From: Paludibacter sp. | Lineage (GTDB): Bacteria; Bacteroidota; Bacteroidia; Bacteroidales; Paludibacteraceae | Direction of reading: 5' to 3' | Assembly: GCA_024710005.1 (NCBI GenBank) | Contig: JANJVQ010000018.1 | Location: 82,764-146,763, forward strand | DNA length: 64,000 nucleotides | Shown here: one piece after another, positions 1,978 through 26,637 of the stretch | Numbering within the stretch: position 1 is the stretch's first letter | How the letters are laid out: each line of letters opens with the position of its first letter | The notes under the pieces: model-generated | The model's input: the letters and a program-made list of their open reading frames with translations, nothing else | What the model was told of the DNA's origin: nothing | Databases searched by the model: none | Translations under genes and position numbers: made by a program

Positions 1978-2065
1978 GAATAAATAATAAAATTGATTTA
2001 TATGTTGTTTAAATGAAATGCTGGCATCTCCCGGAGTCATGCAGAAACAAAAATATAACCTTAGC

Positions 2066-7710: not shown

Positions 7711-7738
7711 GCTAAAAATTGATATTGGTTTATTAGTT

Positions 7739-7766
7739 CCCTGCTTTCCGATCAAAGAAAGCAGGG
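7739..7766 (-). other. Conserved 3' stem-loop (10-bp stem, 8-nt loop), copy 1
   Basis: CCCTGCTTTC-CGATCAAA-GAAAGCAGGG just downstream of the 1017-aa gene; second copy at 14724-14751. Confidence 0.7.
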
Positions 7767-7780
7767 TTATATACACATTG

Positions 7781-10700: not shown

Positions 10701-10834
10701 TCGAGTTTTGATTCGTTCCATCCTTGTTCCGTTGGAACTGAAGCGCCTGAATACACGGTTACAGGCGACTGTGCGAAGCTTTGCCACGCAAAAAGTGGCA
10801 ACGCGCAGGTAAAAAGTAACGTTTTAATTTTCAT
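7781..10834 (-). CDS. T9SS-secreted multidomain protein, no recognisable catalytic domain: split beta-sandwich + 3 CBM4/9-like domains + 2 InlB B-type repeats + T9SS CTD
   Basis: Signal peptide; three NxxxNGxFE...DD/DN units; two FNxxGG...PTKxG(Y/F)xFxGWY...AKW repeats; LYPNPV...GTYIIRV CTD. Confidence 0.8.
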   Translation of the reverse strand: MKIKTLLFTCALPLFAWQSFAQSPVTVYSGASVPTEQGWNESKLDATVNDLAAPTTATVESGVLKLTSTNAVNQFSERKWIKSDLDFNLNTGFTLEIKAKITVADKTGAFNIQGYDKTGKGFRIGILNNAVTEQTNPFAATKVLASDITNGDGFHIFRIACSPLGVAAVYRDNVLLGTFPLTTFQFDNIIENGGFEDADYPDFASNGILSRVTDPKLKRYGNFALEMNSDGKVTNGYSNIEGAHTREIPVKPNTDYDISITRRRTANEPWAWRDMGAFYDFNKGCIGLKGINEDGRDEARRPMFASVNDRVWQVHNQSITTPADAKTIRFEFPSWERDGNKRSVTSSFDNFTFREKVTNTVGATPNPTAGFPEVVLHEGYVNLIQNGGFEDHTINHDGSEYIWALSNEADANNNEPVALNPLWNGNVRIQKNDKPDDQLGGQWARSGTSSLRFSTLGNGANNFDFTKELEAGKTYRFNFWHRNPHWNDYGWIRVKIGDQIIWGHQLGGRNNVWANCDLVFTTSEANKTLHLYSTSDTHGGWMNIFFDDLVLYEMAETTLVDTQIQGKTNLIANGDFEDVNLGNDGQPYTWALASEYSGDDDNYPVKYSEMWGSYVRLQDKQKITDTGLIWAHSGSKALRFSYLDDYGKAQAFEGLANDVLPNAYRTNLDFKKELEPNKTYTFVFWLKTSNYGDRGRIAVANGDKLLWEEELSTKYINWTRQSITFSTTASNRTLRLFTKFTGWFNFYLDDLFLFEEDVYVPAPESDGNAYLAFGKSTGASSTDVEVEYIKVDNTGSYIHTAVFNSNGGSAVASQVVDGTVTEPVNPTKNGYQFAGWYANLVLTTAYDFNTPVTNDLVLYAKWNEEYTITFNLDGGIGITDSTYTVESEAIVLPLPTKEGFNFVGWYDNSELTGTPITSVPQGSTGDKEFWAKWEIATNVNDVRKESLNLYPNPVTDGLLTIDNIQSTDKMIEVYNVLGVRTGLYDIKGSKTEIDLSVLPAGTYIIRVDGQTARILKK

Positions 10835-12155: not shown

Positions 12156-14699
12156 TTATTCTTTAATAAAGGCAACTGTATCATTTTTATCATCTGATTT
12201 TATCCTGATGAAGTACATTCCGGAAGTCAGATCCGAAACATCCACTTCACCATCAAATTTCCCGGGTGATTTTACCAGGGTTCCCAACACATTGTAAATG
12301 CCAGTAATTTCAATCTCCTGGTTTTCAGAGTCAATCCTCAAAAAGTCTTTAGCGGGATTTGGATAAACCTTTAACGCTTTTTTTTTTATGTCTCTGGTTG
12401 CTGTGTTTGTTCCATTATCCATAACTGAAACACCAACATCGATATATTGCCCACCGAATGTTTGCCGGCAATGCACAGCCAGGGTATTTTCACCACCTAA
12501 AACCAGCGCTGATGCTGCAGCAGCGGTAATATCATAGAAAGAATAATCACCTGTGTAACCCGACAATTCAAGCGCCAGCACACCATTTATGTAAATCTTG
12601 CAATCTTCATCGTGATGTACTTTCAGCATCAGTTTTCCCTTATCTAACGCATTTGCAGGCATGGTAAAATTGCGGCGCAGCCAGATATTGGAGGTATTCC
12701 ATACCGTACCGATAATTGCTCCGGGCGTTTTTTCAGTTCCAAAGCCACCATTGCCCGACTGCCACGACGAATCATCAAAGCTTTTGCCGTACCAGCTCAG
12801 GGTTGGGGGTTGACTGAGGGTGTATTTCCAGGTTTGTTTCTGTTCTTCCGAGGTAGGTACTATTTCGGTAAAATATTCATTATCATTAATAATGCGCTGA
12901 TTCACCGCGTAAAAGTCCGATTTATTACCTTTAATAACTTTACGGTCATACGTAATAAACCCGTTTAACTCCATTTCCACATCTGTAATCTCGGTATAAA
13001 CAGCTCCGCTCAGGCCTTTGTTGCTTTTGAAATAGACGAGCATATCACCATACTTTGCATACCGTTGCAGCAGCGCGGCATAACTGTTAACTGTTTCATA
13101 AGGATTACCTTCCTGCCAGATATGACCTTCCTCATAGTATCCTGTACCACCGTATTCACCGCACACGAGAATTTGCGAATTGGTTGAATTGGGTTTCGGA
13201 GCAACAGGGGGTGGATAATTATGATAATCGCGAATATCAGTATTGATATTATCGTACCTTGAGTCGCCGCCACTATTAATATTAACCAGTCGTGAAGGAT
13301 CCAGATTTTTCACAAAATTGGCAATATTGGCTTCATCGTGCGAACCCTGAAATTCGTTGAATGGCACCCACGAAACAATGGAGGGAGAGTTCCAGTGTGT
13401 TTTGATCATGGCTTCGAGTTCGGTCAGGTAAGCCGGGCGTTCCTGAGGCGGAACAGGGCGTAGCCTGGTATCAATGTACGAATTCATCGACGGCATATCC
13501 TGCCACACCAATATACCAAGCTTATCGCACCAGTAATACCAGCGTTGTGGCTCCACTTTGATGTGTTTTCGTATCATGTTGAATCCTAATTCTTTTGTCA
13601 GCTGAATATCAAACTTAAGCGCTTCATCGGTCGGTGCTGTATACACACCATCCGGCCAGAAACCCTGATCGAGTGGCCCCATGTGGAAAACAAACTTGTT
13701 GTTTAGCATCATTCTCGGATACCCATCCACCATCTCTTTCGAAATTTTCCGCATCCCAAAATAGGTTGAAATAGAATCATGTACCTCAGTTCCATTTACA
13801 AGATAGATTTTCATATCGTAAAGAAATGGACTGTCGGGTGACCAGAGTTTAAGAGGGCGGGGAATATCGATGGGAAATCCGTTCACACTGCTTCTGTCTT
13901 CCGCAGATGCAATTTTCACCCCGTTATCGTAAATTTCACAACGGATTTTTAGTCCCCGGATGTAAGTTCCTGCCACATTTGAAGAAACTGTCAGGGTTGC
14001 ATTATCTATATCCGGCACCATACGAATATCAGCAATATAGCTTTGCGGAACCATTTCAAGCCATACTGTTTGCCAGATACCGGTTGTTGAAGTGTACATG
14101 ATTCCACCGGGATACAAGGTTTGTTTTCCCCTCGGATAACCTTTAGCATCGGTCACATCGTTCACCCTGACAGCAATATCCTGTGACCCGGTGGTCAGAT
14201 AGGGTGTTATATCAAAAGAAAACGGGTCATAACCTCCCTGATGGGTACCAACACTGGTTCCGTTGATGAATACTTCGCACAAATAATCCACTGCTCCGAA
14301 ATGGAGTAAGATTCGTTGTCCCGACCAATTGGCAGGAACTGTAAATGACCTGCGATACCATACATTCTCGTGATGTTCCATTATTCCCGAAAGGGCTGAC
14401 TCAACAGGGAAAGGCACCAGAATTTCCCGGGAAAGATTACCGGCAGGCAGAGGTTCTGAGAAACTTGCTGCTGGCTGAAACTGCCAGATACCATTGAGGT
14501 TCAACCAGTTTTCACGAACCATTTGCGGACGGGGATACTCAGGTAAAACCGGATCGGTAGCTTGCAACGCTTCACCCCAGGGAGACATCAACGTAGCAGT
14601 TTTTTTTGCGTACGGAGTTTGAGAATAGGCAAGCTGCTGTAACAGCAGGGTGGCGCAGACCAAAATAAATGTTTGAATTTGTTTGTGCTTTTTAATCAT
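12156..14699 (-). CDS. GH2 glycoside hydrolase + jelly-roll accessory module + T9SS CTD
   Basis: PEYPRPQ, GPLDQGFWPDG, intact WVPFNE and CGEYGG; IWLRR...HHDED module; VYPNPAKD CTD. Confidence 0.9.
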   Translation of the reverse strand: MIKKHKQIQTFILVCATLLLQQLAYSQTPYAKKTATLMSPWGEALQATDPVLPEYPRPQMVRENWLNLNGIWQFQPAASFSEPLPAGNLSREILVPFPVESALSGIMEHHENVWYRRSFTVPANWSGQRILLHFGAVDYLCEVFINGTSVGTHQGGYDPFSFDITPYLTTGSQDIAVRVNDVTDAKGYPRGKQTLYPGGIMYTSTTGIWQTVWLEMVPQSYIADIRMVPDIDNATLTVSSNVAGTYIRGLKIRCEIYDNGVKIASAEDRSSVNGFPIDIPRPLKLWSPDSPFLYDMKIYLVNGTEVHDSISTYFGMRKISKEMVDGYPRMMLNNKFVFHMGPLDQGFWPDGVYTAPTDEALKFDIQLTKELGFNMIRKHIKVEPQRWYYWCDKLGILVWQDMPSMNSYIDTRLRPVPPQERPAYLTELEAMIKTHWNSPSIVSWVPFNEFQGSHDEANIANFVKNLDPSRLVNINSGGDSRYDNINTDIRDYHNYPPPVAPKPNSTNSQILVCGEYGGTGYYEEGHIWQEGNPYETVNSYAALLQRYAKYGDMLVYFKSNKGLSGAVYTEITDVEMELNGFITYDRKVIKGNKSDFYAVNQRIINDNEYFTEIVPTSEEQKQTWKYTLSQPPTLSWYGKSFDDSSWQSGNGGFGTEKTPGAIIGTVWNTSNIWLRRNFTMPANALDKGKLMLKVHHDEDCKIYINGVLALELSGYTGDYSFYDITAAAASALVLGGENTLAVHCRQTFGGQYIDVGVSVMDNGTNTATRDIKKKALKVYPNPAKDFLRIDSENQEIEITGIYNVLGTLVKSPGKFDGEVDVSDLTSGMYFIRIKSDDKNDTVAFIKE

Positions 14700-14779: not shown

Positions 14780-17700
14780 TTACCGGTTTACAATCTTCAC
14801 GGCTTTAACTACTCCGTTAGCAGCCGATTTGATGATGTAAACACCCTGTGGAAGAGCAACAGTCTGCTTGCCATTAACATCGGTACGTTCCACCAATGCA
14901 CCCTGCAGGTTGTAAATCCAGACTGCAGTAGGTTGAGAAGCTGTCATAACCACATTACCCGACACCGAATAAACTATCAGATCATTCACTTTTTCCACAC
15001 CCGGAACTGCTGATTCATCAATATCAAATTCAGCGCCCTGGATTGTTCTGAAGATTGGGAATCCACCACCTTTAGGTATACCCCAAACAGTCGTCATATC
15101 CCATCCGGCAGCACGATAAAGCGAATAACCTTTGAAATCATCGATTGGACGTTTCATTGCACTGGTTGCACGGGCATACTGACCACCACGATTCGGTGCA
15201 AATATCGGATCTAAGGTCATATCATTGCGGGTGAAGCAAGTGGTTGAGTCGATAACGATATATCCACCACCATTGAATGAGATGAACTCATTCCCTGATG
15301 CACTCAGTACTTCTGTAGCCAGTGATACAACTCCGTTGAAGTAGTTCTTTCCTCCTTCAGTACGTGCTACTATACCTGCAGCATCCCGGTTATCAGCCGT
15401 GAGACGATTTGCATGGGTAATTGCAACAGTACCGGTGAAGTAAGAATTAATGATACGGGTATCGCACATGATACCAACCAAACCGGCAGCCTGCCATTCG
15501 GTAGAAGTCACCTTACCATCAACAACATAAACATCCTTAATGGTCGACAGTTTTCCTGTTTCCAGCATACCTGCCACAACGCCTACGTGGTCGCGACCAC
15601 CAACCTCAGGTTGGTATTCACCCTTATCGAACACCACGTGTTCAACCGTTATACCTTTACCGCGACCGAGCAGGATACCGACATCGGCACCACCCTGAAC
15701 ATAGGCTTCAGTGAAACGCAGGTTTACAAAATGAGCACCATCGGCATAACCGAAGAGTCCGAGACGGTCTCCACCATTGATTTCCGGACATCTAACCGTA
15801 TGGTTCTGTCCATCGATATAACCTTTGAAAGGATTATCTGTGTTACCTATTGGAGTGTATTGTTCAGAATACAAATCGATATCAGCAGTCAGACGGTAGA
15901 AACCACTGAGATTATTCTTAATATTCATCCAGTCGGCGGCAGTTGCCACGTTAACCCAGACAGGCTCAGTTACAGGCTCTTCATAAGTAATGTCTTTGGA
16001 CAACTTATCTGTAGTTACTCCCAAATCCATACATGAACCACCACCGTTTTGTATAATATGAATGGCAAACAGGTTTTCGCCTCCATAATTGATTGCAGCC
16101 TTTGCTTCAGGATAAATATCAATTGTTACATAGTTAGTGCTCCATCCTGTATTGGTATGAGCCAACACGCCATTGATATAGAACTCATAATCTTCGTCGT
16201 AGAAAAGTCTGAAATTAAGCTTATCACCTTCTTCCAACACAGGAATATTCACTTTCTTACGGGCATAAAGTTCGATATTATCACCTTTCCAGGAAGTATT
16301 CCATGGGAAAGAAACCCCCATATTTCCTCCGAAAGCAGAACGACCTTCATTCCAGCCGGTCTCATCGAAGTTCATATTTGTATTCCATCCGGCAGCAACG
16401 ACTACTTCATTTTTCACACCAGAGACATATTTCCAGAGTTCTCCACCTTGTCCGCTCGTTTTCAGAACCGGAGCAGTAATCTTGGATTTCATGAAAGCAG
16501 TGGTATTTTTCAACACGCTATCGGCTTTAAGACCTGCTTTATAGACTTTACGGTCATAAGTCATCAAACCATTGATCTCATTTTCGACATCGGTGATTTG
16601 CACCATTGCCAAGCCAGCTATACCTGATAAGGTCAGATTTTTAGCAGCATTAGCAAATTCAGACAAACGAGATGCATAGGTTGCATCGTCTTTGATATCA
16701 CTCGAACTACTTGTATTCCAGAGATGTCCATTGATTGCATAATTATAATTACCTGTTACACCGCAGATTGAAGCACGCTCATTGTACGGATTGGCATGCA
16801 ATTGAGGTAATGGTAAACCATGACGGGAAACTACGTCACCCAATTCATAATTATCATCTCCTGATTCAGGCAACACAAGTCTGCCGTCATTCAGATTCCG
16901 GAATAACTTAACCGTGTTTTCAACATGACTCATATTGTATCTGCCCCAACCATCATTGAAACCTATCCAGGCTACTACTGACGGGAAGTTACGAATGCTC
17001 TTGGTCATAGCAGCTGTTTCACGCAGGAAGTTAGCTTTACGGGCAGCTTCTGTATTAAGTTCAGCAATCGCTGTACCCACATGAGCTGCAGGAATATCCT
17101 GCCATACAAGCAATCCAAGCGAGTCGGCGATATGGTACCAGATAGCCGGTTCGATTTTCACGAACTTACGTACTGCATTGAAGCCAAGTTCTTTCAGCTT
17201 AACAAGATCATGGCGCATTGCATCATAAGAAGCCGGAGTATACAAACCATCAGGGAAATAACCCTGATCAAGCGCTGCGAAATTAAATGTAAGCTGATCG
17301 TTCAGATAGATATACGGTTTTTCACGTGTTTTCTTCACCTCAATCTTACGCATTCCAAAGTATGACGTCACGTTATCAGTTGTTACACCTTCTTTTTTCA
17401 ATGCTACAGTCACATTGTATAGGAACGGAGTTTCAGGAGACCAAAGTTTTGCATTTGCGACCGGAATTGTAGTTTCAGCATCAACTGCTACATCCACTGA
17501 GGCAATTTCGGTTGTACCATCTAATATTTTTACCGTAGCAGTTGCTCCGGCAGCATTAGCAGCTTCAACTTTCACTTTAACCGCGTTGTTATTTACCGGT
17601 GTTAGTGCTACATCTGTAATATAAACAGGATTTACAACTTCGGTCCATACTGTCTGCCAGATACCGGTTACAGGTGTATATGTTGTAGCACCCGGCACCT

Positions 17701-20092
17701 GATCTTGTTTTCCTGAAGGTTGTCCCCCACGGGTAGGATCATATACCTGAACTACAATTTCCTGACTACCATTCGTGTTTAATGCATCGGTAATATCAGC
17801 AGAGAAAGGATTGAATCCTCCTTTATGTTCCACCACTTTCTGTCCGTTAACAAACACTATACTGTGCCAGTCAACCGCGCCAAAATTAAGCATTACACGT
17901 TTACTGTCTGCTGGTTTTTCAATGGTTACAACACGTTTGTAAGCATACGATTTATTCTGGTTGTTGTATTCAACATCCATGATACCGGAGAGGGCTGATT
18001 CTATCGGGAAAGGAACCAAAATTTGCTGACGATAAACTTCATTTGATTTGTAAGTTCCAAAATCATCTCTTGTCTTCCGGGTATAATCCCAGACACCGTT
18101 GAGGTTTGTCCATCCTTCGCGTTTGAGTTGCGGACGCGGATACTGATTCAATACCGGTTCGTTTGCATTCAGGCTTTCACCCCATACGGTCATCAATGGT
18201 GCTGTTTTCTTTTCATAAGGAGAGCTGAAAGTAGAACCATCGGGAGCATAAGCTCCGGTATTGTCAATTTTGATATACTCAATTTCCACCTCAGCACCTT
18301 GGGTACTGGTCTGTTTTCCGAAGAAAAGATGTGTTCCGTCTTCGGGCAATAATTCACCTTCGAATAAGAACAAGTCATCCAGATAAAGAACTCCCGGGGT
18401 GCTTCCATCGCGTTCGGTCAGGATTTGAAGCGCATGATCCGTAGCATCCGTTGTAAATGTAATGACCTGATTCGACCAATCGGCATGTTCAGAATTATTA
18501 ATCGTTTTACGGAAGATTTCTTTTGTTCCGTTTTTCACAACGAGTATCAGGTGGTCGCCACCCCATTTGGCAAAATGATAGGAGAAGAGGAAGGTATACG
18601 TTTTTGCAACACCCAGTTCGATAGGCACCGTTTTGATATTGCTGTTGCTACCTCTGTCTTCATTAGAACCCGCGGTAAAGTCACTTCCATAAGTTGTATT
18701 ATTACCAAAACAGTTGAAGAAACGCAGAGAGTATTTTCCCCTTGCATAGCGATTGCCTGCTTCACCGTTAGACGTTTGTTTGTTGTACTGTACACGTACG
18801 CGTGAGCCCCAGAATGGATGCCAGAAAGGAGCTGCATTATGCTCTGCATTATACGGAGGACTAAACCAAAGCGGATCATCATCAGCCCTGCCACCATAAT
18901 AAGCATCGGCAGAATATCTGTAATTTTCGGGACTTACCATGCAGGTATCGTTACGCGGATCCCCATCCGGGAAATAGTGTGCACAGGGATTTTCAAAATC
19001 TCCGTTCGGGAAAAGATTGATTGCACCTTCAGGAATACGGGAAGCAACGATGCGCTCGCTGAAAAGCATATCATCAATCGCCATTTGATTCAGATTTGCA
19101 TCACTGGTAGGAGTTTCTAAGATAAAACGTTGGAAATTGGCACCACCTTCCATGCCTTTTCTTTCATGATATTTCCAGTTCGGATTGTTTCTGTCACCAA
19201 CAAAATATACACTTCTATCACCGGCAGGATCAAACCATCCATTGACGTCACGCCAGGCTCCTTCAGGATAACTTATTGTCTTTGTCCAGGCAGACATATC
19301 GTAAATTGAACCCGGTTTTACAGGGATAAATTCATTTTTAAAGAATCCTTTGTCAACGAACATACCATATTTACCGCTTCGTACATGAGCTTGATCAGAT
19401 GATACAGTTAATGTACCCGGTTTTCCTTCATCCATCCAGCCCCAGCCATGTTCCGCTGCGCTTTTTCCGTTTTCGAAACCACCGTCTTTCAATATATTAT
19501 CAAGCATAAAGGTTTGTAGCGGTAGTTCACCCAGCAATACGCCATCCCGCCAAACACGCACTTTTTCGTCCGGAGCCACTGCCACACGATAGGTATGGAA
19601 GTCGTCGGTAGTACTTGCCGTACTCAACACGCGAACAGTATCCAATACATTGGCATGTTCAGTAAGCAGGCTGTTGGAAAATTCGAGACGGAAACCTTTC
19701 CCGCCACCAACACCTGAAACGGTGAAAGCGCCATCAGGAGAATTTACCACTTTCGCTCTGAACTCAACTGTAAAACCAATTGCAGGTGAAAAACCAGTGC
19801 GGGTCTTGTACCAGCCTAACTGAGAATACAAAGGGAAACCGAACTCATCTTGTACTTCATTTACTTTCAGTTTAAGTGCCGTTGAAGCAACTGCCGAAAG
19901 TTCAGAAGGGTTAACAAGTAAATCTTTTGTCGCTTGTTCCCATGGCATCGTGTTGTCAAATCGCAATTCTTTCCAACCTTGCTCAGTTGGAAGCGATGTA
20001 CCGTTAAATACACCCACAAGCGATTGAGCCTGTGTCTGCCACAAGAACAGGGACAGACACATCCATAATAAGTAAGTCTTACATGTCCTCAT
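14780..20092 (-). CDS. Giant T9SS-secreted protein: split beta-sandwich + 2 CBM-like domains + degenerate GH2 + jelly-roll module + GLUG-like region + CTD
   Basis: Start moved to MRTCKTY (20092; 1770 aa). GH2 motifs QYPRPQL, NFGAVDW, ALDQGYFPDG are present but catalytic sites read FNDGWG and CGVTGN. FYRLTADIDL...PIG...FKGYIDGQNHT is GLUG-type; IYNLQG...GVYIIK CTD. Confidence 0.85.
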   Translation of the reverse strand: MRTCKTYLLWMCLSLFLWQTQAQSLVGVFNGTSLPTEQGWKELRFDNTMPWEQATKDLLVNPSELSAVASTALKLKVNEVQDEFGFPLYSQLGWYKTRTGFSPAIGFTVEFRAKVVNSPDGAFTVSGVGGGKGFRLEFSNSLLTEHANVLDTVRVLSTASTTDDFHTYRVAVAPDEKVRVWRDGVLLGELPLQTFMLDNILKDGGFENGKSAAEHGWGWMDEGKPGTLTVSSDQAHVRSGKYGMFVDKGFFKNEFIPVKPGSIYDMSAWTKTISYPEGAWRDVNGWFDPAGDRSVYFVGDRNNPNWKYHERKGMEGGANFQRFILETPTSDANLNQMAIDDMLFSERIVASRIPEGAINLFPNGDFENPCAHYFPDGDPRNDTCMVSPENYRYSADAYYGGRADDDPLWFSPPYNAEHNAAPFWHPFWGSRVRVQYNKQTSNGEAGNRYARGKYSLRFFNCFGNNTTYGSDFTAGSNEDRGSNSNIKTVPIELGVAKTYTFLFSYHFAKWGGDHLILVVKNGTKEIFRKTINNSEHADWSNQVITFTTDATDHALQILTERDGSTPGVLYLDDLFLFEGELLPEDGTHLFFGKQTSTQGAEVEIEYIKIDNTGAYAPDGSTFSSPYEKKTAPLMTVWGESLNANEPVLNQYPRPQLKREGWTNLNGVWDYTRKTRDDFGTYKSNEVYRQQILVPFPIESALSGIMDVEYNNQNKSYAYKRVVTIEKPADSKRVMLNFGAVDWHSIVFVNGQKVVEHKGGFNPFSADITDALNTNGSQEIVVQVYDPTRGGQPSGKQDQVPGATTYTPVTGIWQTVWTEVVNPVYITDVALTPVNNNAVKVKVEAANAAGATATVKILDGTTEIASVDVAVDAETTIPVANAKLWSPETPFLYNVTVALKKEGVTTDNVTSYFGMRKIEVKKTREKPYIYLNDQLTFNFAALDQGYFPDGLYTPASYDAMRHDLVKLKELGFNAVRKFVKIEPAIWYHIADSLGLLVWQDIPAAHVGTAIAELNTEAARKANFLRETAAMTKSIRNFPSVVAWIGFNDGWGRYNMSHVENTVKLFRNLNDGRLVLPESGDDNYELGDVVSRHGLPLPQLHANPYNERASICGVTGNYNYAINGHLWNTSSSSDIKDDATYASRLSEFANAAKNLTLSGIAGLAMVQITDVENEINGLMTYDRKVYKAGLKADSVLKNTTAFMKSKITAPVLKTSGQGGELWKYVSGVKNEVVVAAGWNTNMNFDETGWNEGRSAFGGNMGVSFPWNTSWKGDNIELYARKKVNIPVLEEGDKLNFRLFYDEDYEFYINGVLAHTNTGWSTNYVTIDIYPEAKAAINYGGENLFAIHIIQNGGGSCMDLGVTTDKLSKDITYEEPVTEPVWVNVATAADWMNIKNNLSGFYRLTADIDLYSEQYTPIGNTDNPFKGYIDGQNHTVRCPEINGGDRLGLFGYADGAHFVNLRFTEAYVQGGADVGILLGRGKGITVEHVVFDKGEYQPEVGGRDHVGVVAGMLETGKLSTIKDVYVVDGKVTSTEWQAAGLVGIMCDTRIINSYFTGTVAITHANRLTADNRDAAGIVARTEGGKNYFNGVVSLATEVLSASGNEFISFNGGGYIVIDSTTCFTRNDMTLDPIFAPNRGGQYARATSAMKRPIDDFKGYSLYRAAGWDMTTVWGIPKGGGFPIFRTIQGAEFDIDESAVPGVEKVNDLIVYSVSGNVVMTASQPTAVWIYNLQGALVERTDVNGKQTVALPQGVYIIKSAANGVVKAVKIVNR

Positions 20093-20168: not shown

Positions 20169-21140
20169 TTACCATTCAAATATTTCCTGCTGATCTTCTT
20201 CGGGAATCTGTGTATTCCTTCTGCGTTCCAGCGTATAAGATCCTTTAAGCGTATATTTCACTGTATAACTCGGATTAGATACATCCTTGTAGCTGTATTG
20301 AAGCTCCATGGTTACAGTTCGTATCATCAGATAGGGTTGCAGCGGATCCATTTCTTCTTTAATATTCCAGGTACATTTTCCCGGAACCGGCGTAAATTCA
20401 ATTTTAGCGCTATCGGCCGTAAAACTAAGGGTATTGTCGGCATTGAATTTTGCTCTTACCTTGTAGGTTGCGCGGTCACGTGCATCTTCTTCACATAAAC
20501 CGGCATAAAAGAATACGACACTATCACTTACGACCCGCATGTCACGTGTTGCTTTTGAAGTTGGAGTTGCATCTCCTTCGGCTGTGATAGTTCCGGCACC
20601 AGCCGAATAAGTCCCTGAAAAATAATTGAAAGGAATGATGCGCATCAAAGTTTTCTTGTAATGATTTTTCGGTGATGGAACATATTCTGAGGTTGAAGAA
20701 ATTTTCAAAGGGAGTATATATTTCTCTACCAGATCCAAATCATTAACCCGGAAATCAACGTTGAGGTAACCAACATCCTTTCCTGCCGGGATTGTTACAG
20801 TAGTACCATTGGGGAAACTATAGTATTCTTCTCCCAACAACCTGAAAAACAAGTCATCCCGGGTATAAAACATCGTCCGGTTATGCGCCACGAGTGTATC
20901 GGCATCCAGCTCTACCTGAACAGTCACCTGCCGCTCATTTGTAGTTGACCCACTTACTTCGACCGGAATTTTATAATGAATAATTCCATCCGTCGTATTG
21001 GAATTCAAATACGTCTCTGTATATCCGGAGCGTACGAATGAAACATATTTTTGATACTGTTCACCTTTCCACTCGTCTTCGCAGGCATAAAACGCTATAC
21101 CCAGCGTTACCATGATTGTATAAAATAATATCTTCTTCAT
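20169..21140 (-). CDS. PUL surface lipoprotein (DUF4973/DUF1735, BT_3987-like)
   Basis: Lipobox FYAC; directly downstream of SusD; PVEVSGS, LDADTL, YILPLKI patterns. Confidence 0.75.
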   Translation of the reverse strand: MKKILFYTIMVTLGIAFYACEDEWKGEQYQKYVSFVRSGYTETYLNSNTTDGIIHYKIPVEVSGSTTNERQVTVQVELDADTLVAHNRTMFYTRDDLFFRLLGEEYYSFPNGTTVTIPAGKDVGYLNVDFRVNDLDLVEKYILPLKISSTSEYVPSPKNHYKKTLMRIIPFNYFSGTYSAGAGTITAEGDATPTSKATRDMRVVSDSVVFFYAGLCEEDARDRATYKVRAKFNADNTLSFTADSAKIEFTPVPGKCTWNIKEEMDPLQPYLMIRTVTMELQYSYKDVSNPSYTVKYTLKGSYTLERRRNTQIPEEDQQEIFEW

Positions 21141-21152
21141 TGTGTCCTTTTT

Positions 21153-23432
21153 TTATTCTTCAAATGTTTTCCATCCGGGATTTTGTGTCATTTTTCTGTT
21201 TTTTCTCAACTCACTGTGAGAAATTGGCCATAAATACATCTTTTCAGCAAAAATGGCTGGGACAAGTGAAATCTCACGTGGAGTCTGCCACAAAGTTCTT
21301 TGTAACTTATCACTTGCATTATAAGTCAATGGTCCGGTCATATCCATATTGTAGCCCCATACCGGCATTGCTTCTTCTCTTTCTGCATCTCCCCAACGGC
21401 GCAAATCATAATACCGGTGTGATTCGCCCATGAATTCAATTTGCCATTCACGTTTGATGCGTTTGCGCATTTCGTCCTTATCTGCAAAATAATCATCAGT
21501 AAAATCGGGTAAACCTGCCCGAACCCGTACAGGACGAAGTCCTTTGCTGATTTCACTTTTCGTTCTGCTGACTGTAATCATTCCAACTCCATCGTATGCC
21601 GGGATGTTGTAGGTACCACTCAGTTCATTCAGGGCTTCAGCATAAGTAAGCAACATATCGGCATAGCGTATCGCGGGTTCAGCTTTTCTCACGCGACCAC
21701 CCGACCAGTCTTCCGGATGATAGTATTTACGAATACCAATCCCTGTCCAGTAATAGAAGCCGGAAGCATCTTTACCATCTCCACCATTACGATAAATAAA
21801 TACCTGAGTGTAACGTTTGTTATCGTTTACATTAGTACCTTCATTTTCCCAAATACTGCCATTATAGGCCACCGAAGCATAAAAACGGGGTTCACGGTTG
21901 GCATTTTGCAAAGAAACACCCGGAGGTAGCGGAGCCCAGTTAGTATAAGATTGGTATCTCCTGTTGTTAATTTCTTCTGTAAATTCATTGGCATAAGCGG
22001 GAACAGTTGCTGAGGGGTCGCTGTAATAATAGGGACGACCTTCAGAATCGACTCCTTCTTTATAACGATAGAAGTCACTTCCATCAGCCATGTAATAGGC
22101 ATCATACATTTTCAATGTCAATCCATGACAATTCCAGCCTCCAAGTGAGCGAGGCATCTGGTGTATTGACAAGTTGTCCATGGCGTCGCCATAACCGCGG
22201 GAGAAAATCAGTTCGGGATTTGCATAAGCGGTCAACGAACCATCAAACAACTGTCGGTACGATTCAGTTGGATCAATATCGGCCCATCCGCAATTGTCAG
22301 CACCATCGTTAAATGGTTTATCTGAGTAACCCGGAATGGTTTGTTGTTGAATTTTCCATGTAGTACCCTCCTGAACAATGGTTGCACCCGGTTCAACAGT
22401 TTTGGGATATCGGTAAAAATCGAACGGAAGAGCCGATCCCTGTGCTCCTTTCATATTACTGGAGTTGTTCAGACGTTTAGGTACACTGTAGAGTTTATAC
22501 ACACCTAAATCCATTACCTCTTTGGCAGCAGCTGCTGCTTTGGCCCAACGTTCTTCTTTATATTCCGGGTCAATGAGTGGAGAACCATCATAGCTGATTA
22601 ACTGTTTCGCCCAATCGCTTGTATTTCCGTTATATTGCGGGCTTGCTCCAAACAAATACACCTTGGCACGGGCAGCAAGTGCGGCTCCTTTGGTTGGTTT
22701 GAAAATTTCCCTGTTATTGCGACCCGGTGGCAGGTCACGTGCTGCTATAGCCAATTCATTGGCTATATATTCCACACATACATCGTATCTACTACGCGGT
22801 ATTGAAAGTTCTTCATAACTTCCGGTAAAATCAACTCCTTCGTCAGGCAGAATTGGAATCGGACCATATTTACGAAGCAATTGCCAATAGTAATATGCCC
22901 GAAGGAAACGCGCCTCTGCTTTTGTTTCTTTAATGTAGGTATCTAACTGCTCAGCACTCATCTCATCACGGATGTTATCTCCATTTACCAATTGATCGAT
23001 ATTATGAATATAAATGGATGCATCGCGGATGCCGATGTAACAAACCCTCCATTGCTCTTGTAAGAATTGTTCTGTATACTGGCCACCACGATATATACGG
23101 TATGACGCCAACTGTCCAAAGACATAGTCATCTGCTTTTTCACGGTCGGTATAATACATATCGTCCGTTATAAAATTGAATTGATTGGCATTTTGTTCTT
23201 TGATACTCACATCCCAGTTATCACGGTTGCGTAAATGGCTGTAGACTCCAGCCAACCATCGCTTTGAGTAGTCCATACTTTCAAACACATCCTGCAAATC
23301 AAGCTGATCGTTGAGCAGATGCTCCACCTTCAGGAAATCACTACAGGCATTGAATGAAAGTGTTGTCGCTAAAACTGTCAGTATCGAAATCAACCTGACT
23401 TTTAGTTTATTTATTTTCGTTTTCATTTTCAT
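21153..23432 (-). CDS. susD: RagB/SusD family lipoprotein
   Basis: Lipobox SFNAC; AEARFLRAYYYWQLLRKYGPIP, IRYADMLLTYAEA, EWQIEFMGESHRYYDLRRWG, QNPGW. Confidence 0.95.
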   Translation of the reverse strand: MKMKTKINKLKVRLISILTVLATTLSFNACSDFLKVEHLLNDQLDLQDVFESMDYSKRWLAGVYSHLRNRDNWDVSIKEQNANQFNFITDDMYYTDREKADDYVFGQLASYRIYRGGQYTEQFLQEQWRVCYIGIRDASIYIHNIDQLVNGDNIRDEMSAEQLDTYIKETKAEARFLRAYYYWQLLRKYGPIPILPDEGVDFTGSYEELSIPRSRYDVCVEYIANELAIAARDLPPGRNNREIFKPTKGAALAARAKVYLFGASPQYNGNTSDWAKQLISYDGSPLIDPEYKEERWAKAAAAAKEVMDLGVYKLYSVPKRLNNSSNMKGAQGSALPFDFYRYPKTVEPGATIVQEGTTWKIQQQTIPGYSDKPFNDGADNCGWADIDPTESYRQLFDGSLTAYANPELIFSRGYGDAMDNLSIHQMPRSLGGWNCHGLTLKMYDAYYMADGSDFYRYKEGVDSEGRPYYYSDPSATVPAYANEFTEEINNRRYQSYTNWAPLPPGVSLQNANREPRFYASVAYNGSIWENEGTNVNDNKRYTQVFIYRNGGDGKDASGFYYWTGIGIRKYYHPEDWSGGRVRKAEPAIRYADMLLTYAEALNELSGTYNIPAYDGVGMITVSRTKSEISKGLRPVRVRAGLPDFTDDYFADKDEMRKRIKREWQIEFMGESHRYYDLRRWGDAEREEAMPVWGYNMDMTGPLTYNASDKLQRTLWQTPREISLVPAIFAEKMYLWPISHSELRKNRKMTQNPGWKTFEE

Positions 23433-23445
23433 TATAGATTTAATA

Positions 23446-26400
23446 TTATAAACTGATTGTCAGTCCACCTGTGAAACTTTTTGTAATCGGATAAGCCATA
23501 CCATTACCGCTACCCAACTCCGGATCCCAAAGCTTCAGGCTATCCCACACAAAAAGGTTCGAGCCGATAAAATGCAGTCGGATGCTATTGATATGCCACA
23601 TATTGGTTATTCTCTTCGGCACAGTAAATCCGATTTCAAGTGTTTTGAACCGGAGATATGCTCCGTTACGCAACCAATAGGTCGAAGCCCGGTAGTTATT
23701 CGCATTTCCACCATAACTCAGTCGCGGATATTTAGCATTGGGATTGGGATTACTTTCCGACCAGTAATTTCCCACCATATCAGTCAGAATATTACCCCAG
23801 GGCAATGTATTTCCGGCATGGATTTCAGAAAAAGGATATACAGCTGGTCCGTTGATGAAGTAGGATGATTTTCCTGCACCCTGAAAATGCACATTCACAT
23901 CAAGTCCTTTCCATGTTGCCGATGCACCTACACCATATATGAGGTTGGGCACACGGGTTGAACCGATTGCCACCACATCGTTATCATTGATTAAACCGTC
24001 ACCATTGATATCTTTATATTTTATATCACCCGGCATATAAGCGCCAAATTCCTGTTTCGGACTATTACGGATATCTTCATAACTTTCAAATAGACCCATA
24101 GCAATTAAGCCTTTAGCCTGCTCCCAACGATAACCCTGTGTCATCTTATAAGGCAAAGCGCTCGCCTCTTCGTCATATTCGAGTACTTTATTGCGGGTAT
24201 AGGTTATGTTCCCACGCATGGTCATTTCTACCTGATCAAATTTCTGGTTATAGTTAAATTGTCCGTCAAAACCCATGTTCTCCATCTTACCAATGTTGGC
24301 CCAGGGTTGCGAAGTGATACCCGTCATTTCCGACAAGTGCTTGCGCTGCATATAGATGTTACTACGTGTATCCTTAAATATATCAAATGCACCGGAGAAT
24401 TTATTGTTCCACAAATTAAAATCAATACCCAGGTTATGTTTGGTTGCAACCTCCCAGGTTAGATAATCAGCAGCATATTCTGTGATATGCATTCCCCGGT
24501 ATTGTGAAAGATTTCCTTCGCTTGCCAGACCACTGTAGTTCGGGCTATTGAGATCCCCGTAATTATATCCATCCACTAACCCAATTGCCCCCATATATGG
24601 GAAGCGAATTTCCTCATTTCCTCTTCTTATTTTATTGTTTCCAACCTGTCCGTATGAGTAACGAATTTTCAATAAGTCGAAAATCTTTGTATTTTCCTTT
24701 ACAAAAGGTTCTTCAGAGATGTTCCATGCACCCGAAACTGCCGGGAAAAATCCAAACTGATGACCGGTTTTAAACACTTCCGAACCGGTATATCCTCCAT
24801 TGAACTCAATAAAATACCGACTTAAATAATCATAGGAAATTCGACCTGACACACCCTGATCACGACGTGGAATACCGCGTGCAATATTATTACCCACATT
24901 TGAAGTTTCAGCCTGTTCACGTTGTGCATACTTCGTGAAAAGACTCACATTATGAGCATCAGCAAACATTCGGTTATACGACAACTCTCCTTCGAGGTTG
25001 TAGATACGTTCGCCCCAGGAATCTGACTCCTGTCCCATCAACCTCTCTGTGGAAACACGGTAGAAAACCAGATTACCACTACTATCGCGGCGACGTTGTG
25101 TGTTATGCTGTTCAGGCCATCGTACGTGTTTTATATTATTACGGTTAAACGAGTCAAATGCAAAACGCCCGACAAAGCGTAATCCTTTGGTGATGAAATC
25201 AAAATTTTGTTCCAACGTGATATTAGTCTCCACTTTATTGCGCCATGATTCATTATAACCTGATTGTGTACCTAATACCCAGGGATTCGTTAATTCTCCG
25301 GTTCCATAGGCAGGAGTTAATCCGTTAGAATATTCCAGTGGAGTTGCCAGAGGCGAATATCCTACAATTGATTTCCAGATATTGATACCATCACCGTTAA
25401 CGATTCTGTTCATAATAATCGTGTTATCATCAACATTGGTATATGTGTAGGTTTCAACCAAACCGGCACGATTTTGCTTTTCAAGAAAACCTGAAACACC
25501 GGTACGTAATACTGTAGTCGGCGTTATGTCAATATCTGTATTCATACGATAATTATAACGCTCCAGGTTGCTGTTTGTATTATAATCCCGGAGTGATTCG
25601 TCTGTTTTATACATACCACCTTCGCTCAAATAACTTCCTGAAACATAATAACGGGCAGTTGAAGCACCACCACTCAGATTTATTGAAGCACGATAAGTCC
25701 CCGCTCCGTCTTTCAGAAGAACGTCTTTCCAGTCAACGTTCGGATAAAGGTCAGGATCCAGGTTGTTTTCTATGATTTGCATCTCAATATCATTGTAGAG
25801 CGGTTCCATATTACGTGTACTTCTGGCTTCATTAATTAGCTTTGCATACGACAGTCCGTCTACAAACTCAGGGGTGCGTGTACGGGTGTTGTATCCGTAC
25901 TCCACTTTACCGTTAATATTGATTTTACCGGGATCACCTTTTTTAGTCGTGATAATAATAACCCCGTTAGCACCTCTGGAACCATATATCGCGGTAGCAG
26001 AGGCATCTTTCAATACCGAGAATGATTCGATATCTTCAATATTGATTTCATTAAACGGACGTTCAAATCCGTCGACAAGCACAAGAGCACTTGAACCGGC
26101 ACCAAAAGTAGAAATACCACGAATCCAGAACTCCGACTGGTTAGCTCCGGGTTCCCCGGATACCTGCATCGAAATTACACCGGCAATATTACCTGCCAGT
26201 GAATTGGTTATGTTAGCAGTAGGCACCCTCAGTGTTTTCATATCGACTGTTGAAATAGCACCTGAGATTGATGCTTTTTTTACTGCTCCTGTACCGGTTA
26301 CAACCACTTCATTCAACACATTGTTATCGTTACTGGCCATTTGCACATTAATGGTAGTTCTACCATCAACATCAACTTCCTTTTTATCATATCCGACATA

Positions 26401-26637
26401 CGAAAACACGAGTGTAGCATTCCTTTTTACTTTAATGGAGTATTTCCCATCCAGATTTGTATTTACACCAAAACCAGGTTCGTTTTTCACATAAATATTG
26501 ACACCTATCATAGGTTCTTTATTTTCGTCGGTCACTGTTCCCGAAACTGTGATGGTATTTTCCTGTTGTGCAAATGAATTGGGTATCATGCAAAACAGGA
26601 ATGATATTATGCAGATCAGAATTTGTATCTGTTTCAT
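23446..26637 (-). CDS. susC: SusC/RagA TonB-dependent transporter
   Basis: LNEVVVTG, LVLVDGFER, LKDASATAIYGSRGANGVIIITTK, LTWEVATKHNLGID, YLRFKTLEIG, WDPE. Confidence 0.97.
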   Translation of the reverse strand: MKQIQILICIISFLFCMIPNSFAQQENTITVSGTVTDENKEPMIGVNIYVKNEPGFGVNTNLDGKYSIKVKRNATLVFSYVGYDKKEVDVDGRTTINVQMASNDNNVLNEVVVTGTGAVKKASISGAISTVDMKTLRVPTANITNSLAGNIAGVISMQVSGEPGANQSEFWIRGISTFGAGSSALVLVDGFERPFNEINIEDIESFSVLKDASATAIYGSRGANGVIIITTKKGDPGKININGKVEYGYNTRTRTPEFVDGLSYAKLINEARSTRNMEPLYNDIEMQIIENNLDPDLYPNVDWKDVLLKDGAGTYRASINLSGGASTARYYVSGSYLSEGGMYKTDESLRDYNTNSNLERYNYRMNTDIDITPTTVLRTGVSGFLEKQNRAGLVETYTYTNVDDNTIIMNRIVNGDGINIWKSIVGYSPLATPLEYSNGLTPAYGTGELTNPWVLGTQSGYNESWRNKVETNITLEQNFDFITKGLRFVGRFAFDSFNRNNIKHVRWPEQHNTQRRRDSSGNLVFYRVSTERLMGQESDSWGERIYNLEGELSYNRMFADAHNVSLFTKYAQREQAETSNVGNNIARGIPRRDQGVSGRISYDYLSRYFIEFNGGYTGSEVFKTGHQFGFFPAVSGAWNISEEPFVKENTKIFDLLKIRYSYGQVGNNKIRRGNEEIRFPYMGAIGLVDGYNYGDLNSPNYSGLASEGNLSQYRGMHITEYAADYLTWEVATKHNLGIDFNLWNNKFSGAFDIFKDTRSNIYMQRKHLSEMTGITSQPWANIGKMENMGFDGQFNYNQKFDQVEMTMRGNITYTRNKVLEYDEEASALPYKMTQGYRWEQAKGLIAMGLFESYEDIRNSPKQEFGAYMPGDIKYKDINGDGLINDNDVVAIGSTRVPNLIYGVGASATWKGLDVNVHFQGAGKSSYFINGPAVYPFSEIHAGNTLPWGNILTDMVGNYWSESNPNPNAKYPRLSYGGNANNYRASTYWLRNGAYLRFKTLEIGFTVPKRITNMWHINSIRLHFIGSNLFVWDSLKLWDPELGSGNGMAYPITKSFTGGLTISL

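What the first reader, a model, noticed from the sequence alone, without database searches (positions are those of the whole stretch)
14780..20092. 1770-aa T9SS cargo carrying an apparently dead GH2 (pseudoenzyme): both catalytic glutamates lost
The two other GH2s in the window have acid/base WVPFNE and nucleophile GEYGG. The aligned positions here read WIGFND (Asp codon GAT at 16952-16954) and ICGVTGN (Val codon GTA at 16757-16759). Neighbouring residues also differ (RKH to RKF, H(H/N)YP to HGLP). The ORF is intact and the scaffold motifs (YPRPQ, FGAVDW, LDQG..PDG.YT, TDVE.EINGL.TYDRK) are kept. That fits a barrel retained as a binding domain, not a decaying gene. It is fused to the nested CBM-like module, the shared jelly-roll module and a GLUG-like region, lies next to SusC/D and sits beside an active secreted GH2. 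Inference: a very large extracellular lectin or scaffold built from an inactivated hydrolase.
Basis: partly seen in the sequence, partly recalled or inferred. Interest (0 to 1): 0.82.

Follow-up and report, generated by a model that had tools for sequence, protein, structure and literature searches.

The report
Catalytically disabled GH2 surface protein
A giant secreted protein in a Bacteroidales sugar-harvesting gene cluster carries a furanosidase-type GH2 enzyme domain that has lost its catalytic residues yet is tightly conserved, so it most likely holds its sugar target rather than cutting it, beside a working enzyme.

Summary
ORF 14780-20092 (-) encodes a 1770-aa protein. Its GH2 module (residues 640-1205) is a close relative of furanosidase-type GH2s (7SF2, ORF1110/9J6N). 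It reads ND for the acid/base NE and GVTGN for the nucleophile GEYGG. Four independent metagenome assemblies carry identical bases.

The loss is wider than reported. Eight residues invariant in 24 intact relatives are replaced: H977F, E1047D, D1089S, Y1093L, E1112V, Y1163M, T1164V and one Tyr loop. The residues that bind sugar O2/O3/O5/O6 in ORF1110 are kept (K795, Y805, N1046, E1172), as is the Mg site.

Twenty orthologues (65-93% identity) share the loss. A sister clade of 13 has the same architecture at the same PUL position and keeps every catalytic residue.

The barrel is not decaying: dN/dS is 0.046, it is the best-conserved domain, and 28 versus 3 fixed changes fall on its stem branch.

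In 6/6 disabled loci, and 0/4 intact ones, an ~850-aa intact T9SS GH2 follows immediately.

Best reading: a surface glycan-holding protein derived from an exo-furanosidase, with cleavage probably done by the neighbour. Binding is inferred, not shown. A remodelled active site (invariant new E1076) is not excluded.

The parts
14780..20092 (-). Whole CDS, 1770 aa plus stop codon: signal peptide, three CBM-like domains, disabled GH2, jelly roll, GLUG beta-helix and T9SS CTD.
20027..20092 (-). Residues 1-22, MRTCKTYLLWMCLSLFLWQTQA: Sec-type signal peptide with no lipobox. Read by eye; no predictor was run.
   Evidence: sequence
18248..20026 (-). Residues 23-615: three beta-sandwich CBM-like domains. 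They are homologous (28% identity, E 3e-48) to the N-terminus of the neighbouring 1017-aa T9SS protein.
   Evidence: model pLDDT 87.5; fold matches to CBM22 tandem, CBM61, CBM16 and a CBM4-derived domain
17633..18175 (-). Residues 640-820: GH2 jelly-roll domain. It keeps the Mg-site ligands D741, D785 and Q796, and the pocket residues K795 and Y805.
17339..17632 (-). Residues 821-918: GH2 Ig-like domain.
16478..17338 (-). Residues 919-1205: GH2 TIM barrel with the catalytic machinery replaced. It is under strong purifying selection.
17162..17164 (-). F977, replacing the O3-binding His of RKH (ORF1110 H401). Phe in 21/21 of the disabled clade; His in 24/24 intact relatives.
16952..16954 (-). 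D1047 (GAT), at the acid/base Glu position (ORF1110 E464). In the clade this position is 18 Asp, 2 Glu and 1 Asn.
16865..16867 (-). E1076 in the PESG motif: a new acidic residue invariant in the disabled clade (21/21). Intact relatives have Ala, Asn, Gly, Val or Met here. It is the candidate for a relocated carboxylate or a new ligand contact.
16814..16816 (-). L1093, replacing the invariant Tyr of HNY (ORF1110 Y512). This position is variable in the clade (L, F, I, T, D, K, V), which indicates relaxed constraint.
16757..16759 (-). V1112 (GTA), at the nucleophile Glu position (ORF1110 E530). In the clade it is Val in 16 and Ile in 5.
16007..16477 (-). Residues 1206-1362: jelly roll resembling the GH2 N-terminal sugar-binding domain and the PA14 carbohydrate-binding domain.
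15023..15970 (-). Residues 1375-1690: beta-helix of GLUG type. The best structural match is 3N6Z (BACOVA_03286), with TM-score 0.65 on the target.
14783..14995 (-). Residues 1700-1770: T9SS type A C-terminal sorting domain.
12156..14699 (-). Adjacent 847-aa GH2 with a T9SS CTD and the full catalytic residue set (WVPFNE, GEYGG). This is the constant downstream partner of the disabled protein.
20169..26637 (-). Genes directly upstream: the SusE/F-like gene (DUF4973/BT_3044-like, 20169-21140), SusD (21153-23432) and SusC (23446-26637). They define the PUL.

Best explanation
The gene encodes a Sec- and T9SS-exported, probably cell-surface-attached, 1770-aa PUL protein. Its ancestor was a multi-domain exo-furanosidase of the GH2 group III / GH2_18 type. 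That ancestral state survives, catalytically intact, in a sister clade at the same PUL position. In the lineage of the window, the TIM barrel underwent a burst of fixed substitutions. These removed the nucleophile Glu (now V/I), the acid/base Glu (now mostly D), the O3-binding His (now F), two active-site Tyr and three further invariant residues. Ordinary retaining hydrolysis should therefore be abolished. The barrel was then kept under strong purifying selection. It still has the residues that in ORF1110 hold O2, part of O3/O5 and all of O6 of galactofuranose, and it still has the Mg site. The module, together with three N-terminal CBM-like domains and a PA14-like jelly roll, most likely captures and holds a furanoside-decorated glycan (Galf or Araf termini) at the cell surface, next to SusC/D. 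Cleavage is probably left to the intact ~850-aa T9SS GH2 (and usually a GH43) that is always encoded immediately downstream. Shown here: the residue losses, the selection, the clade structure, the synteny, the domain folds and the CTD. Inferred: lack of activity, sugar binding, ligand identity and division of labour.
For: Residue mapping onto the ORF1110-inhibitor complex (PMC11627007) gives K212/Y228/N463/E594 = K795/Y805/N1046/E1172. These are kept in 21/21, 21/21, 19/21 and 21/21 sequences. H401, E464, Y512, E530 and Y551 are lost in all 21, while all 24 intact relatives keep all nine. The TIM barrel has the highest within-clade identity of any domain (0.742) but the lowest identity between clades among the large domains (0.454). 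dN/dS between the window and L009 is 0.046 for the barrel, at an unsaturated dS of 0.73. Fixed changes on the stem to the disabled clade versus the intact clade are 28 vs 3 in the barrel and 2 vs 2 in the jelly roll. In the NJ tree the two clades are sisters, with a long stem to the disabled one. Synteny: both clades sit after TIG-SusC-SusD-DUF4973. An intact ~850-aa GH2-CTD follows immediately in 6/6 disabled loci and 0/4 intact loci. Five further disabled-clade members share a contig with a partner orthologue, judged by matching contig lengths, and no intact-clade member does. Accessory domains have CBM-like folds. The CTD passes TIGR04183 in 10/10 tails tested. An engineered acid/base mutant of ORF1110 keeps specific Galf binding, so the principle works (PMC11084152).
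Against: No binding or activity data exist. Half of the sugar contacts are gone, and the pocket has gained F977, V1112, M1163 and V1164, so it may no longer bind a hydrophilic sugar in the old way. Retention of K795/Y805/E1172 is only weakly significant, because about 35% of module columns are invariant in the clade, and these residues may be kept for structural reasons. The closest published analogue, the conserved dead GH26B of a Segatella copri PUL, showed no binding to any glycan tested (PMC12704710). The partner association is phylogenetically one event and is not 10 independent observations. The partner is only 38-41% identical to the disabled module, so it is not a recent duplicate that visibly took over. 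Invariant new acidic residues (E1076, D1069, D1136) are unexplained by a pure lectin model.
Confidence: 0.55

Rival explanations
1. The module is still an enzyme but works by a non-canonical mechanism or on a new substrate. The remodelled pocket would use relocated carboxylates, namely the invariant E1076 just after the next barrel strand, with or without D1047, D1069 or D1136. The activity could be inverting hydrolysis, transglycosylation, lyase-like or phosphorolytic chemistry, or action on a more hydrophobic or modified furanoside.
For: Six acidic residues are gained specifically in the disabled clade, three of them invariant (E1076, D1069, D1136). Selection on the barrel is very strong. 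The burst of 28 fixed changes looks like adaptation and not mere loss. The GH2 subfamily study leaves open whether NE-motif variants in the neighbouring subfamily GH2_19 (7XYR, NE to TV) are active by original mechanisms (PMC12243196).
Against: D1047 is not fixed (2 Glu, 1 Asn; P0004 reads HN). E978 is absent in the window protein itself. Eight invariant active-site residues are lost at once, including both transition-state Tyr. None of the ORF1110 inhibitor contacts lies in the E1076 loop. An intact GH2 of the same subfamily is always adjacent, so hydrolytic activity is not missing from the locus.
Confidence: 0.15
2. The barrel is kept only as a structural body or protein-protein interface, with no ligand in the old pocket. 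It would act as a spacer that presents the CBM-like domains and beta-helix, or as a docking partner for the adjacent GH2 or other PUL surface proteins.
For: Conservation is uniform over the whole module and is not focused on the pocket. Y1093 is relaxed. The pocket has become hydrophobic. The dead GH26B of S. copri bound nothing tested. The partner gene is constant.
Against: ORF1110 is a monomer, so there is no precedent for oligomerisation in this subfamily. A mere spacer would not need 28 fixed changes concentrated in the barrel followed by dN/dS of 0.046. The polar pocket residues K795, Y805 and E1172 and the Mg site are all invariant.
Confidence: 0.2
3. The finding is a decaying pseudogene or an assembly or sequencing artefact.
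For: None beyond the missing catalytic residues.
Against: The 1770-codon ORF is intact here and in 20 orthologues of 1753-1808 aa. dN/dS is 0.062 over the whole gene. Four independent assemblies carry the same bases at both codons. Short metatranscriptome contigs map inside the gene (weak evidence).
Confidence: 0.01

Closest known systems
ORF1110 beta-D-galactofuranosidase of Streptomyces sp. JHA19 (GH2_18; PDB 9J6M/9J6N) and BACCELL_01794 (PDB 7SF2)
   Same: The three-domain GH2 fold aligns end to end (E 2e-107 and 2e-112). The Mg-site ligands and the residues that hold O2, O3 and O5/O6 of the furanose (K, Y, N, E) are identical. The Trp that stacks on the sugar in other GH2s is absent, as in the rest of group III.
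   Different: The window protein lacks the nucleophile Glu, the acid/base Glu, the His and two Tyr. It is embedded in a 1770-aa T9SS protein with CBM-like domains and a GLUG beta-helix. No activity is expected by the Koshland mechanism.
GalfNeoLect, the engineered E464Q mutant of ORF1110 used as a Galf-specific lectin (PMC11084152)
   Same: A GH2_18 furanosidase in which the catalytic carboxylate is replaced. The engineered protein keeps specific Galf binding, which is the same principle proposed here.
   Different: GalfNeoLect is man-made, carries one substitution and has residual activity. The window protein is natural, has eight or more substitutions including the nucleophile, and its pocket is remodelled, so its ligand may differ. 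Binding has not been measured.
GH26B of Segatella copri PUL 7 (PMC12704710)
   Same: A surface-predicted GH homologue in a PUL with both catalytic Glu replaced. The replacement is conserved across many genomes, and the gene is encoded beside active enzymes of the same family.
   Different: It belongs to a different family (GH26) and is a single-domain protein. It was tested experimentally: no hydrolysis, and no binding to the glycans tried. No intact orthologous sister clade at the same position was reported.
GH2_19 members with altered NE motif, e.g. PDB 7XYR with TV (PMC12243196)
   Same: They belong to the same GH2 group III, and the acid/base motif is replaced in a natural protein. The significance is explicitly stated as unknown.
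   Different: They belong to a different subfamily and are mostly intracellular. The published note concerns only the NE motif. No lineage-wide loss of both Glu, no selection analysis and no partner enzyme were described.
Other glycosidase-derived pseudoenzymes: beetle GH28 pseudo-polygalacturonases (PMC6549527) and GH18 chitinase-like lectins (from my own knowledge, not tested here)
   Same: The catalytic residues are lost, the fold is kept under selection, and the proteins act alongside active paralogues.
   Different: They are eukaryotic, belong to other folds and families, and are not part of a PUL or T9SS surface system.

Membership tests
Glycoside hydrolase family 2 (group III, GH2_18-like furanosidases) | Jelly-roll + Ig-like + TIM-barrel architecture with significant sequence similarity to family members | tested here: met
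   Pfam PF02837, PF00703 and PF02836 all score above their cut-offs. Similarity to 7SF2 is E 2e-112 and to 9J6N E 2e-107 over about 545 residues.
Glycoside hydrolase family 2 (group III, GH2_18-like furanosidases) | Acid/base Glu in the NE motif at the end of barrel strand 4 | tested here: not met
   The window protein reads ND (D1047). Across the clade the position is 18 D, 2 E and 1 N. All 24 intact relatives have E.
Glycoside hydrolase family 2 (group III, GH2_18-like furanosidases) | Nucleophile Glu on barrel strand 7 (GE(Y/F/T)GG) | tested here: not met
   The window protein has V1112. The clade has 16 V and 5 I. All 24 intact relatives have E.
Glycoside hydrolase family 2 (group III, GH2_18-like furanosidases) | Hydrolytic activity on beta-D-Galf or alpha-L-Araf glycosides | not testable with these tools
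   This needs an enzyme assay.
Pseudoenzyme (catalytically dead homologue kept by selection) | Clear homology to an enzyme family with loss of essential catalytic residues | tested here: met
Pseudoenzyme (catalytically dead homologue kept by selection) | Purifying selection on the dead domain, with the state shared across a clade | tested here: met
   Barrel dN/dS is 0.046. Twenty-one sequences at 65-93% identity share the state. The barrel is the most conserved domain.
Pseudoenzyme (catalytically dead homologue kept by selection) | Demonstrated absence of catalytic activity | not testable with these tools
   Absence of activity is inferred only. ORF1110 E530A and E464A strongly reduce activity (PMC11627007).
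T9SS type A cargo | C-terminal sorting domain matching TIGR04183 / PF18962 | tested here: met
   The tail alone scores 32 bits against a cut-off of 23, and 10/10 orthologue tails pass. In the full-length protein the score is 22.0 bits, and Pfam gives 14.7 bits against a cut-off of 27.
T9SS type A cargo | N-terminal Sec signal peptide | tested here: inconclusive
   MRTCKTYLLWMCLSLFLWQTQAQS looks like a type I signal, read by eye. No predictor is available.
T9SS type A cargo | T9SS machinery encoded in the genome | not testable with these tools
   Only 64 kb of the genome is held. Three other CTD proteins in the window imply that a T9SS is present.
Polysaccharide utilisation locus component | Co-oriented and adjacent to a SusC/SusD pair, conserved across species | tested here: met
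   SusC, SusD and a DUF4973/BT_3044-like gene lie directly upstream in the window and in all 9 related loci. L003 has an HTCS gene inserted between them.
Surface glycan-binding protein (SGBP, SusE/F-like) | Lipoprotein anchoring and demonstrated glycan binding | tested here: not met
   There is no lipobox Cys after the signal peptide, and anchoring would be through the CTD. Binding is not testable. The protein may work like an SGBP but is not a member of that group.
Carbohydrate-binding modules (N-terminal region and 1206-1362) | Beta-sandwich fold similar to solved CBMs | tested here: met
   Foldseek matches to CBM22 tandem, CBM61, CBM16, a CBM4-derived domain, PA14 and the GH2 N-domain. This is at fold level only. 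Sequence hits to PF02018 and MAM are below their cut-offs, and ligand residues were not examined.
GLUG domain | Beta-helix similar to BACOVA_03286 or the IgA1-protease GLUG region, or a Pfam PF07581 hit | tested here: inconclusive
   The fold match to 3N6Z has E 5e-8 and TM-score 0.65 on the target. PF07581 is not found in the window protein and is listed only for some homologues.

The most novel reading that the evidence does not exclude
The remodelled barrel is not dead but is a new active site. After losing the Koshland pair, the lineage fixed new carboxylates (the invariant E1076, D1069 and D1136) and a hydrophobic floor (F977, V1112, M1163, V1164). This would create a GH2-fold enzyme with a non-canonical mechanism, or with specificity for a modified (for example esterified or methylated) furanoside. 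The 28 fixed barrel changes would then be adaptive.
Probability: 0.12. Interest if true: 0.85.

Novelty: new variant of a known kind. Interest (0 to 1): 0.55.

Why it matters
Conserved catalytically dead glycosidase homologues keep turning up in PULs, and their role is unsolved. For the S. copri GH26B, for example, no ligand was found. This case is unusually tractable for four reasons:
- An orthologous sister clade with the same 1770-aa architecture at the same locus position is intact, which gives a natural active/disabled pair.
- The substitutions are mapped onto a solved inhibitor complex.
- The change coincides with a constant neighbouring enzyme.
- The exact gene is present in many sludge, sediment and wastewater metagenomes.

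If the module binds furanoside termini, it would be a natural counterpart of the engineered Galf neolectin. The authors of that work built it because no natural Galf-specific lectin was available, and such reagents are wanted for detecting fungal and bacterial Galf glycans. If it is instead catalytic, it would extend the mechanisms known for GH2.

There is also a practical consequence for annotation. All 21 proteins would be counted as GH2 enzymes by domain-based CAZyme annotation, and one is named 'Beta-galactosidase'. At least three other nucleophile-less lineages exist among the nearest 147 cluster representatives.

Tried and rejected
It returned only relatives of 40% identity or less. It named no organism for the window and added nothing to the clade A/B question.
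2. Structure prediction returns no coordinates. I therefore could not measure whether E1076, D1069, D1136 or D1047 lie near the anomeric position. I used the two prediction jobs on the unknown N- and C-terminal regions instead.
3. dN/dS is usable for one pair only (window vs L009). In all other pairs dS is saturated or undefined, so protein-level rate comparisons were used.
4. RNA evidence is weak. Only short low-depth contigs map to the gene. They come from one metatranscriptome and three ambiguously labelled 'metagenomic RNA-Seq' runs, so this is weak support for expression.
5. The idea that the small partner GH2 is a recent tandem duplicate of the big protein's module is rejected. It is 38-41% identical, against 49-52% for the intact sister clade, and it forms a separate clade.
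6. The literature search for 'GH2' plus 'pseudoenzyme' matched only GH28 papers, by word-start matching. No description of a GH2 lacking both Glu was found in the searched library, which does not prove that none exists.
It was replaced by scanning ten C-terminal tails.
Full report
**1. The observation**

The minus-strand ORF 14780..20092 encodes 1770 aa from its ATG.
- Pfam finds the three GH2 domains above their cut-offs at residues 708-786, 823-915 and 956-1084, and a weak T9SS tail.
Asp1047 is GAT at 16952-16954 and Val1112 is GTA at 16757-16759.
- The two other GH2s of the window (12156..14699, 847 aa; 169..2040, 623 aa) read WVPFNE, GEYGG, RKH and H(N/H)YP.
- A phmmer search of residues 640-1220 against PDB sequences gives end-to-end alignments to 7SF2 (E 2e-112) and to the beta-D-galactofuranosidase ORF1110, 9J6N/9J6M (E 2e-107).
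- In those alignments ND faces NE, GVTGN faces GE(Y/F)GG, RKF faces RKH and HGL faces H(N/H)(Y/V).
- Contigs from four unrelated metagenome runs (sludge, sediment, oil facility, freshwater) match 16700-17000 over both codons; one contig has a single difference near its end. The bases are therefore real.

**2. What kind of GH2 this is**

The GH2 subfamily study places ORF1110 (9J6M) in subfamily GH2_18 and 7XYR in GH2_19. Together these form group III, the only GH2 group acting on furanosides (beta-D-Galf, alpha-L-Araf) (PMC12243196).

The ORF1110-iminogalactitol complex names the pocket residues (PMC11627007):
- K212 binds O3 and O6.
- Y228 binds O6.
- H401 binds O3.
- N463 binds O2.
- E464 is the acid/base.
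- E530 is the nucleophile.
- Y551 contacts the ring N and O5.
- E594 binds O5 and O6.

In a MAFFT alignment of 45 modules these map to K795, Y805, F977, N1046, D1047, V1112, a deleted position inside a conserved SSSSD loop, and E1172. ORF1110 Y512 (the Tyr of HNY) maps to L1093.

Three more residues are invariant in every intact relative and replaced here: D1089S, Y1163M and T1164V. The Mg ligands of ORF1110 (D157, D201, Q213) are kept as D741, D785 and Q796.

The loss is therefore far wider than two glutamates. The catalytic half of the pocket is gone and has become hydrophobic. The half that grips the exocyclic diol and O2 is intact.

**3. Relatives**

A search of the 5.8-billion-protein collection returns 33 full-length proteins of 1711-1808 aa. 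They fall into two groups.
- **Clade A** is the window protein plus P0001-P0020, at 65-93% identity. The named members come from Paludibacter, Ca. Ordinivivax, Dysgonamonadaceae and Tannerella MAGs. All lack the nucleophile (16 V, 5 I), the His (21 F) and both Tyr. The acid/base position is 18 D, 2 E and 1 N.
- **Clade B** is P0021-P0033, at 44-54% identity. It has the same architecture and keeps every one of the nine residues. So do the small partners, the 623-aa GH2 of the window, 7SF2 and ORF1110, giving 24 of 24 intact.
- In an NJ tree of the modules, A and B are sisters with a long stem leading to A. The small GH2s form a separate clade outside them.

**4. Selection**
- Within clade A the TIM barrel is the most conserved domain (mean pairwise identity 0.742). 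Between A and B it is the least conserved of the large domains (0.454).
- For the only pair with unsaturated dS (window vs L009, dS 0.73), barrel dN/dS is 0.046 and whole-gene dN/dS is 0.062.
- I polarised fixed differences with the outgroup consensus. Twenty-eight changes fall on the stem to A and 3 on the stem to B in the barrel. The jelly roll has 2 vs 2 and the Ig domain 1 vs 0.
- This pattern is a domain-specific burst followed by renewed constraint. It indicates a change of function, not decay.
- Two positions behave as expected when catalysis no longer matters. The Tyr-1093 position drifts (L, F, I, T, D, K, V) and the acid/base position is not fixed.

**5. Genomic context**

In the window the gene follows TIG-domain, SusC, SusD and DUF4973/BT_3044-like genes. 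It precedes the 847-aa GH2 with a T9SS CTD, a GH43, a 1017-aa T9SS protein and a GH76-like gene.
- Nine related loci were fetched. Both clades occupy the same position after SusC/SusD/DUF4973.
- An intact 840-852-aa GH2-CTD follows immediately in all six clade A loci (window, L002, L006, L007, L008, L009).
- None of the four clade B loci (L001, L003, L004, L005) has it there. Those continue with GH76, a GH51-like gene, an esterase or a sulfatase.
- Because clade A is monophyletic, this is one evolutionary association. It is stably inherited.
- The small GH2 is only 38-41% identical to the disabled module, so it is an older paralogue and not a fresh duplicate.

**6. The rest of the protein**
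- An AlphaFold model of residues 23-640 (pLDDT 87.5, pTM 0.85) shows three beta-sandwich domains. Their best PDB matches are CBM22 tandems, CBM61, CBM16 and a CBM4-derived domain.
- This region is 28% identical to the N-terminus of the neighbouring 1017-aa protein.
- A model of residues 1207-1702 (pLDDT 89.7) shows a jelly roll like the GH2 N-domain or PA14, followed by a beta-helix. The helix best matches 3N6Z (BACOVA_03286, the GLUG-type 'putative IgA1 protease').
- The last 95 residues score 32 bits against TIGR04183 (cut-off 23), as do the tails of nine orthologues.
- All these accessory parts are shared with the intact clade B. They are ordinary targeting and anchoring modules and are not in themselves evidence for a lectin.

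**7. Mechanism**

The best-supported reading is as follows.
- An ancestral surface exo-furanosidase lost retaining hydrolysis in one lineage.
- It was kept as a glycan-holding module that works with the CBM-like domains, next to SusC/D.
- The adjacent intact T9SS GH2 (and GH43) does the cutting.

The engineered ORF1110 E464Q 'neolectin' shows that a catalytically blunted GH2_18 keeps specific Galf binding (PMC11084152).

The steps are at different levels of support. The residue loss, the selection, the synteny and the folds are shown. Inactivity is inferred from established GH2 chemistry and from the ORF1110 E530A/E464A data. Binding, ligand identity and division of labour are inferred.

Three facts count against a simple lectin reading. 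The pocket has become hydrophobic. Clade A has gained new invariant acidic residues: E1076, D1069 and D1136, and in 19 of 21 members a Glu or Asp at position 978, which the window protein lacks. The dead GH26B of S. copri gave negative binding results (PMC12704710).

I give the holding-protein model 0.55, a ligand-free structural or docking role 0.20, a non-canonical enzyme 0.15, and decay or artefact about 0.01.

**8. How unusual it is**
- A full HMMER pass over 1.84 billion cluster representatives finds 15,852 relatives. Clade A is a single 50% cluster (P0013), plus a fragment.
- Of the 147 other nearest representatives, 119 have the full nine-residue set, and most of the rest vary only at the Y551 position.
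- The nucleophile is missing in three: P0170 (E to V, H to Y, Y to F), P0123 (E to Q) and P0110 (E to R).
- Loss of the nucleophile in this subfamily is therefore rare but recurrent.
- The GH2 subfamily paper already flags NE-motif variants in GH2_19 as unexplained.
- Dead GH homologues in PULs and GH pseudoenzymes in general are known.
- I found no description of a GH2 clade lacking both glutamates with an intact orthologous sister.
- I rate it a new variant of a known kind and of moderate interest, mainly because it is so well set up for experiment.

Noticed in passing
window 4111-6528, 28266-30821, 33634-36156 (all minus strand): Three paralogous 805-851-aa proteins with DUF4964 + DUF5127 + GtaA six-hairpin domains lie in the same cluster. 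The same family flanks the related loci. One database protein (P0035, 1461 aa) fuses such a protein to an intact GH2_18 module, which suggests a functional link between the two families.
   Followed up: partly
window 7781-10834 (minus strand): A 1017-aa T9SS protein has an N-terminal ~600 aa that duplicates the triple CBM-like region of the big GH2 protein (28% identity, with an internal repeat). It continues with Listeria-Bacteroides repeats and has no catalytic domain. It is conserved in related loci (L006, L007, L009).
   Followed up: partly
proteins P0170, P0123, P0110 (one search hits; not in the window): These are independent GH2_18-like representatives without the nucleophile Glu. P0170 (626 aa) reads RKY / FNE / HKF / GVYGG, P0123 reads GQYGS and P0110 reads GRANRN. 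Disabled members therefore recur in this subfamily.
   Followed up: partly
window 31091-33631 (minus strand): An 846-aa protein with Kelch-type beta-propeller repeats sits inside the glycan-utilisation cluster. A similar gene precedes the PUL in L007.
   Followed up: no
L005 21767-25226; proteins P0209, P0225: One intact-clade locus carries a further ~1318-aa GH2_18 paralogue 6.5 kb downstream. Some orthologues of the small partner are fused to GDSL esterase and/or GH43 domains. This points to a substrate with esterified furanoside side chains.
   Followed up: no
window 16500-17300: This exact stretch (90-100% of sampled 31-mers) occurs in metagenomes from bioreactor and activated sludge, freshwater and other sediments, wastewater, biofilm and an oil-production facility. 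The carrier organism is therefore widespread in anoxic engineered and natural habitats.
   Followed up: partly
window 15413-16036 and 16049-16627 (plus strand): Two antisense ORFs of 207 and 192 aa lie wholly inside the big gene. Given the strong purifying selection on the minus-strand frame, they are most likely spurious.
   Followed up: no
window 6556-7776; L001 15651-17780; L004 19089-21173; L005 18189-20513: GH76-like genes (the family of alpha-1,6-mannanases) accompany the furanosidase-type GH2s in both clades. Together with Galf-ase-type GH2s this would fit a fungal galactomannan-like target. However, GH115, GH51-like and esterase genes in related loci point to plant heteroxylan or arabinogalactan instead. 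The substrate is unresolved.
   Followed up: no
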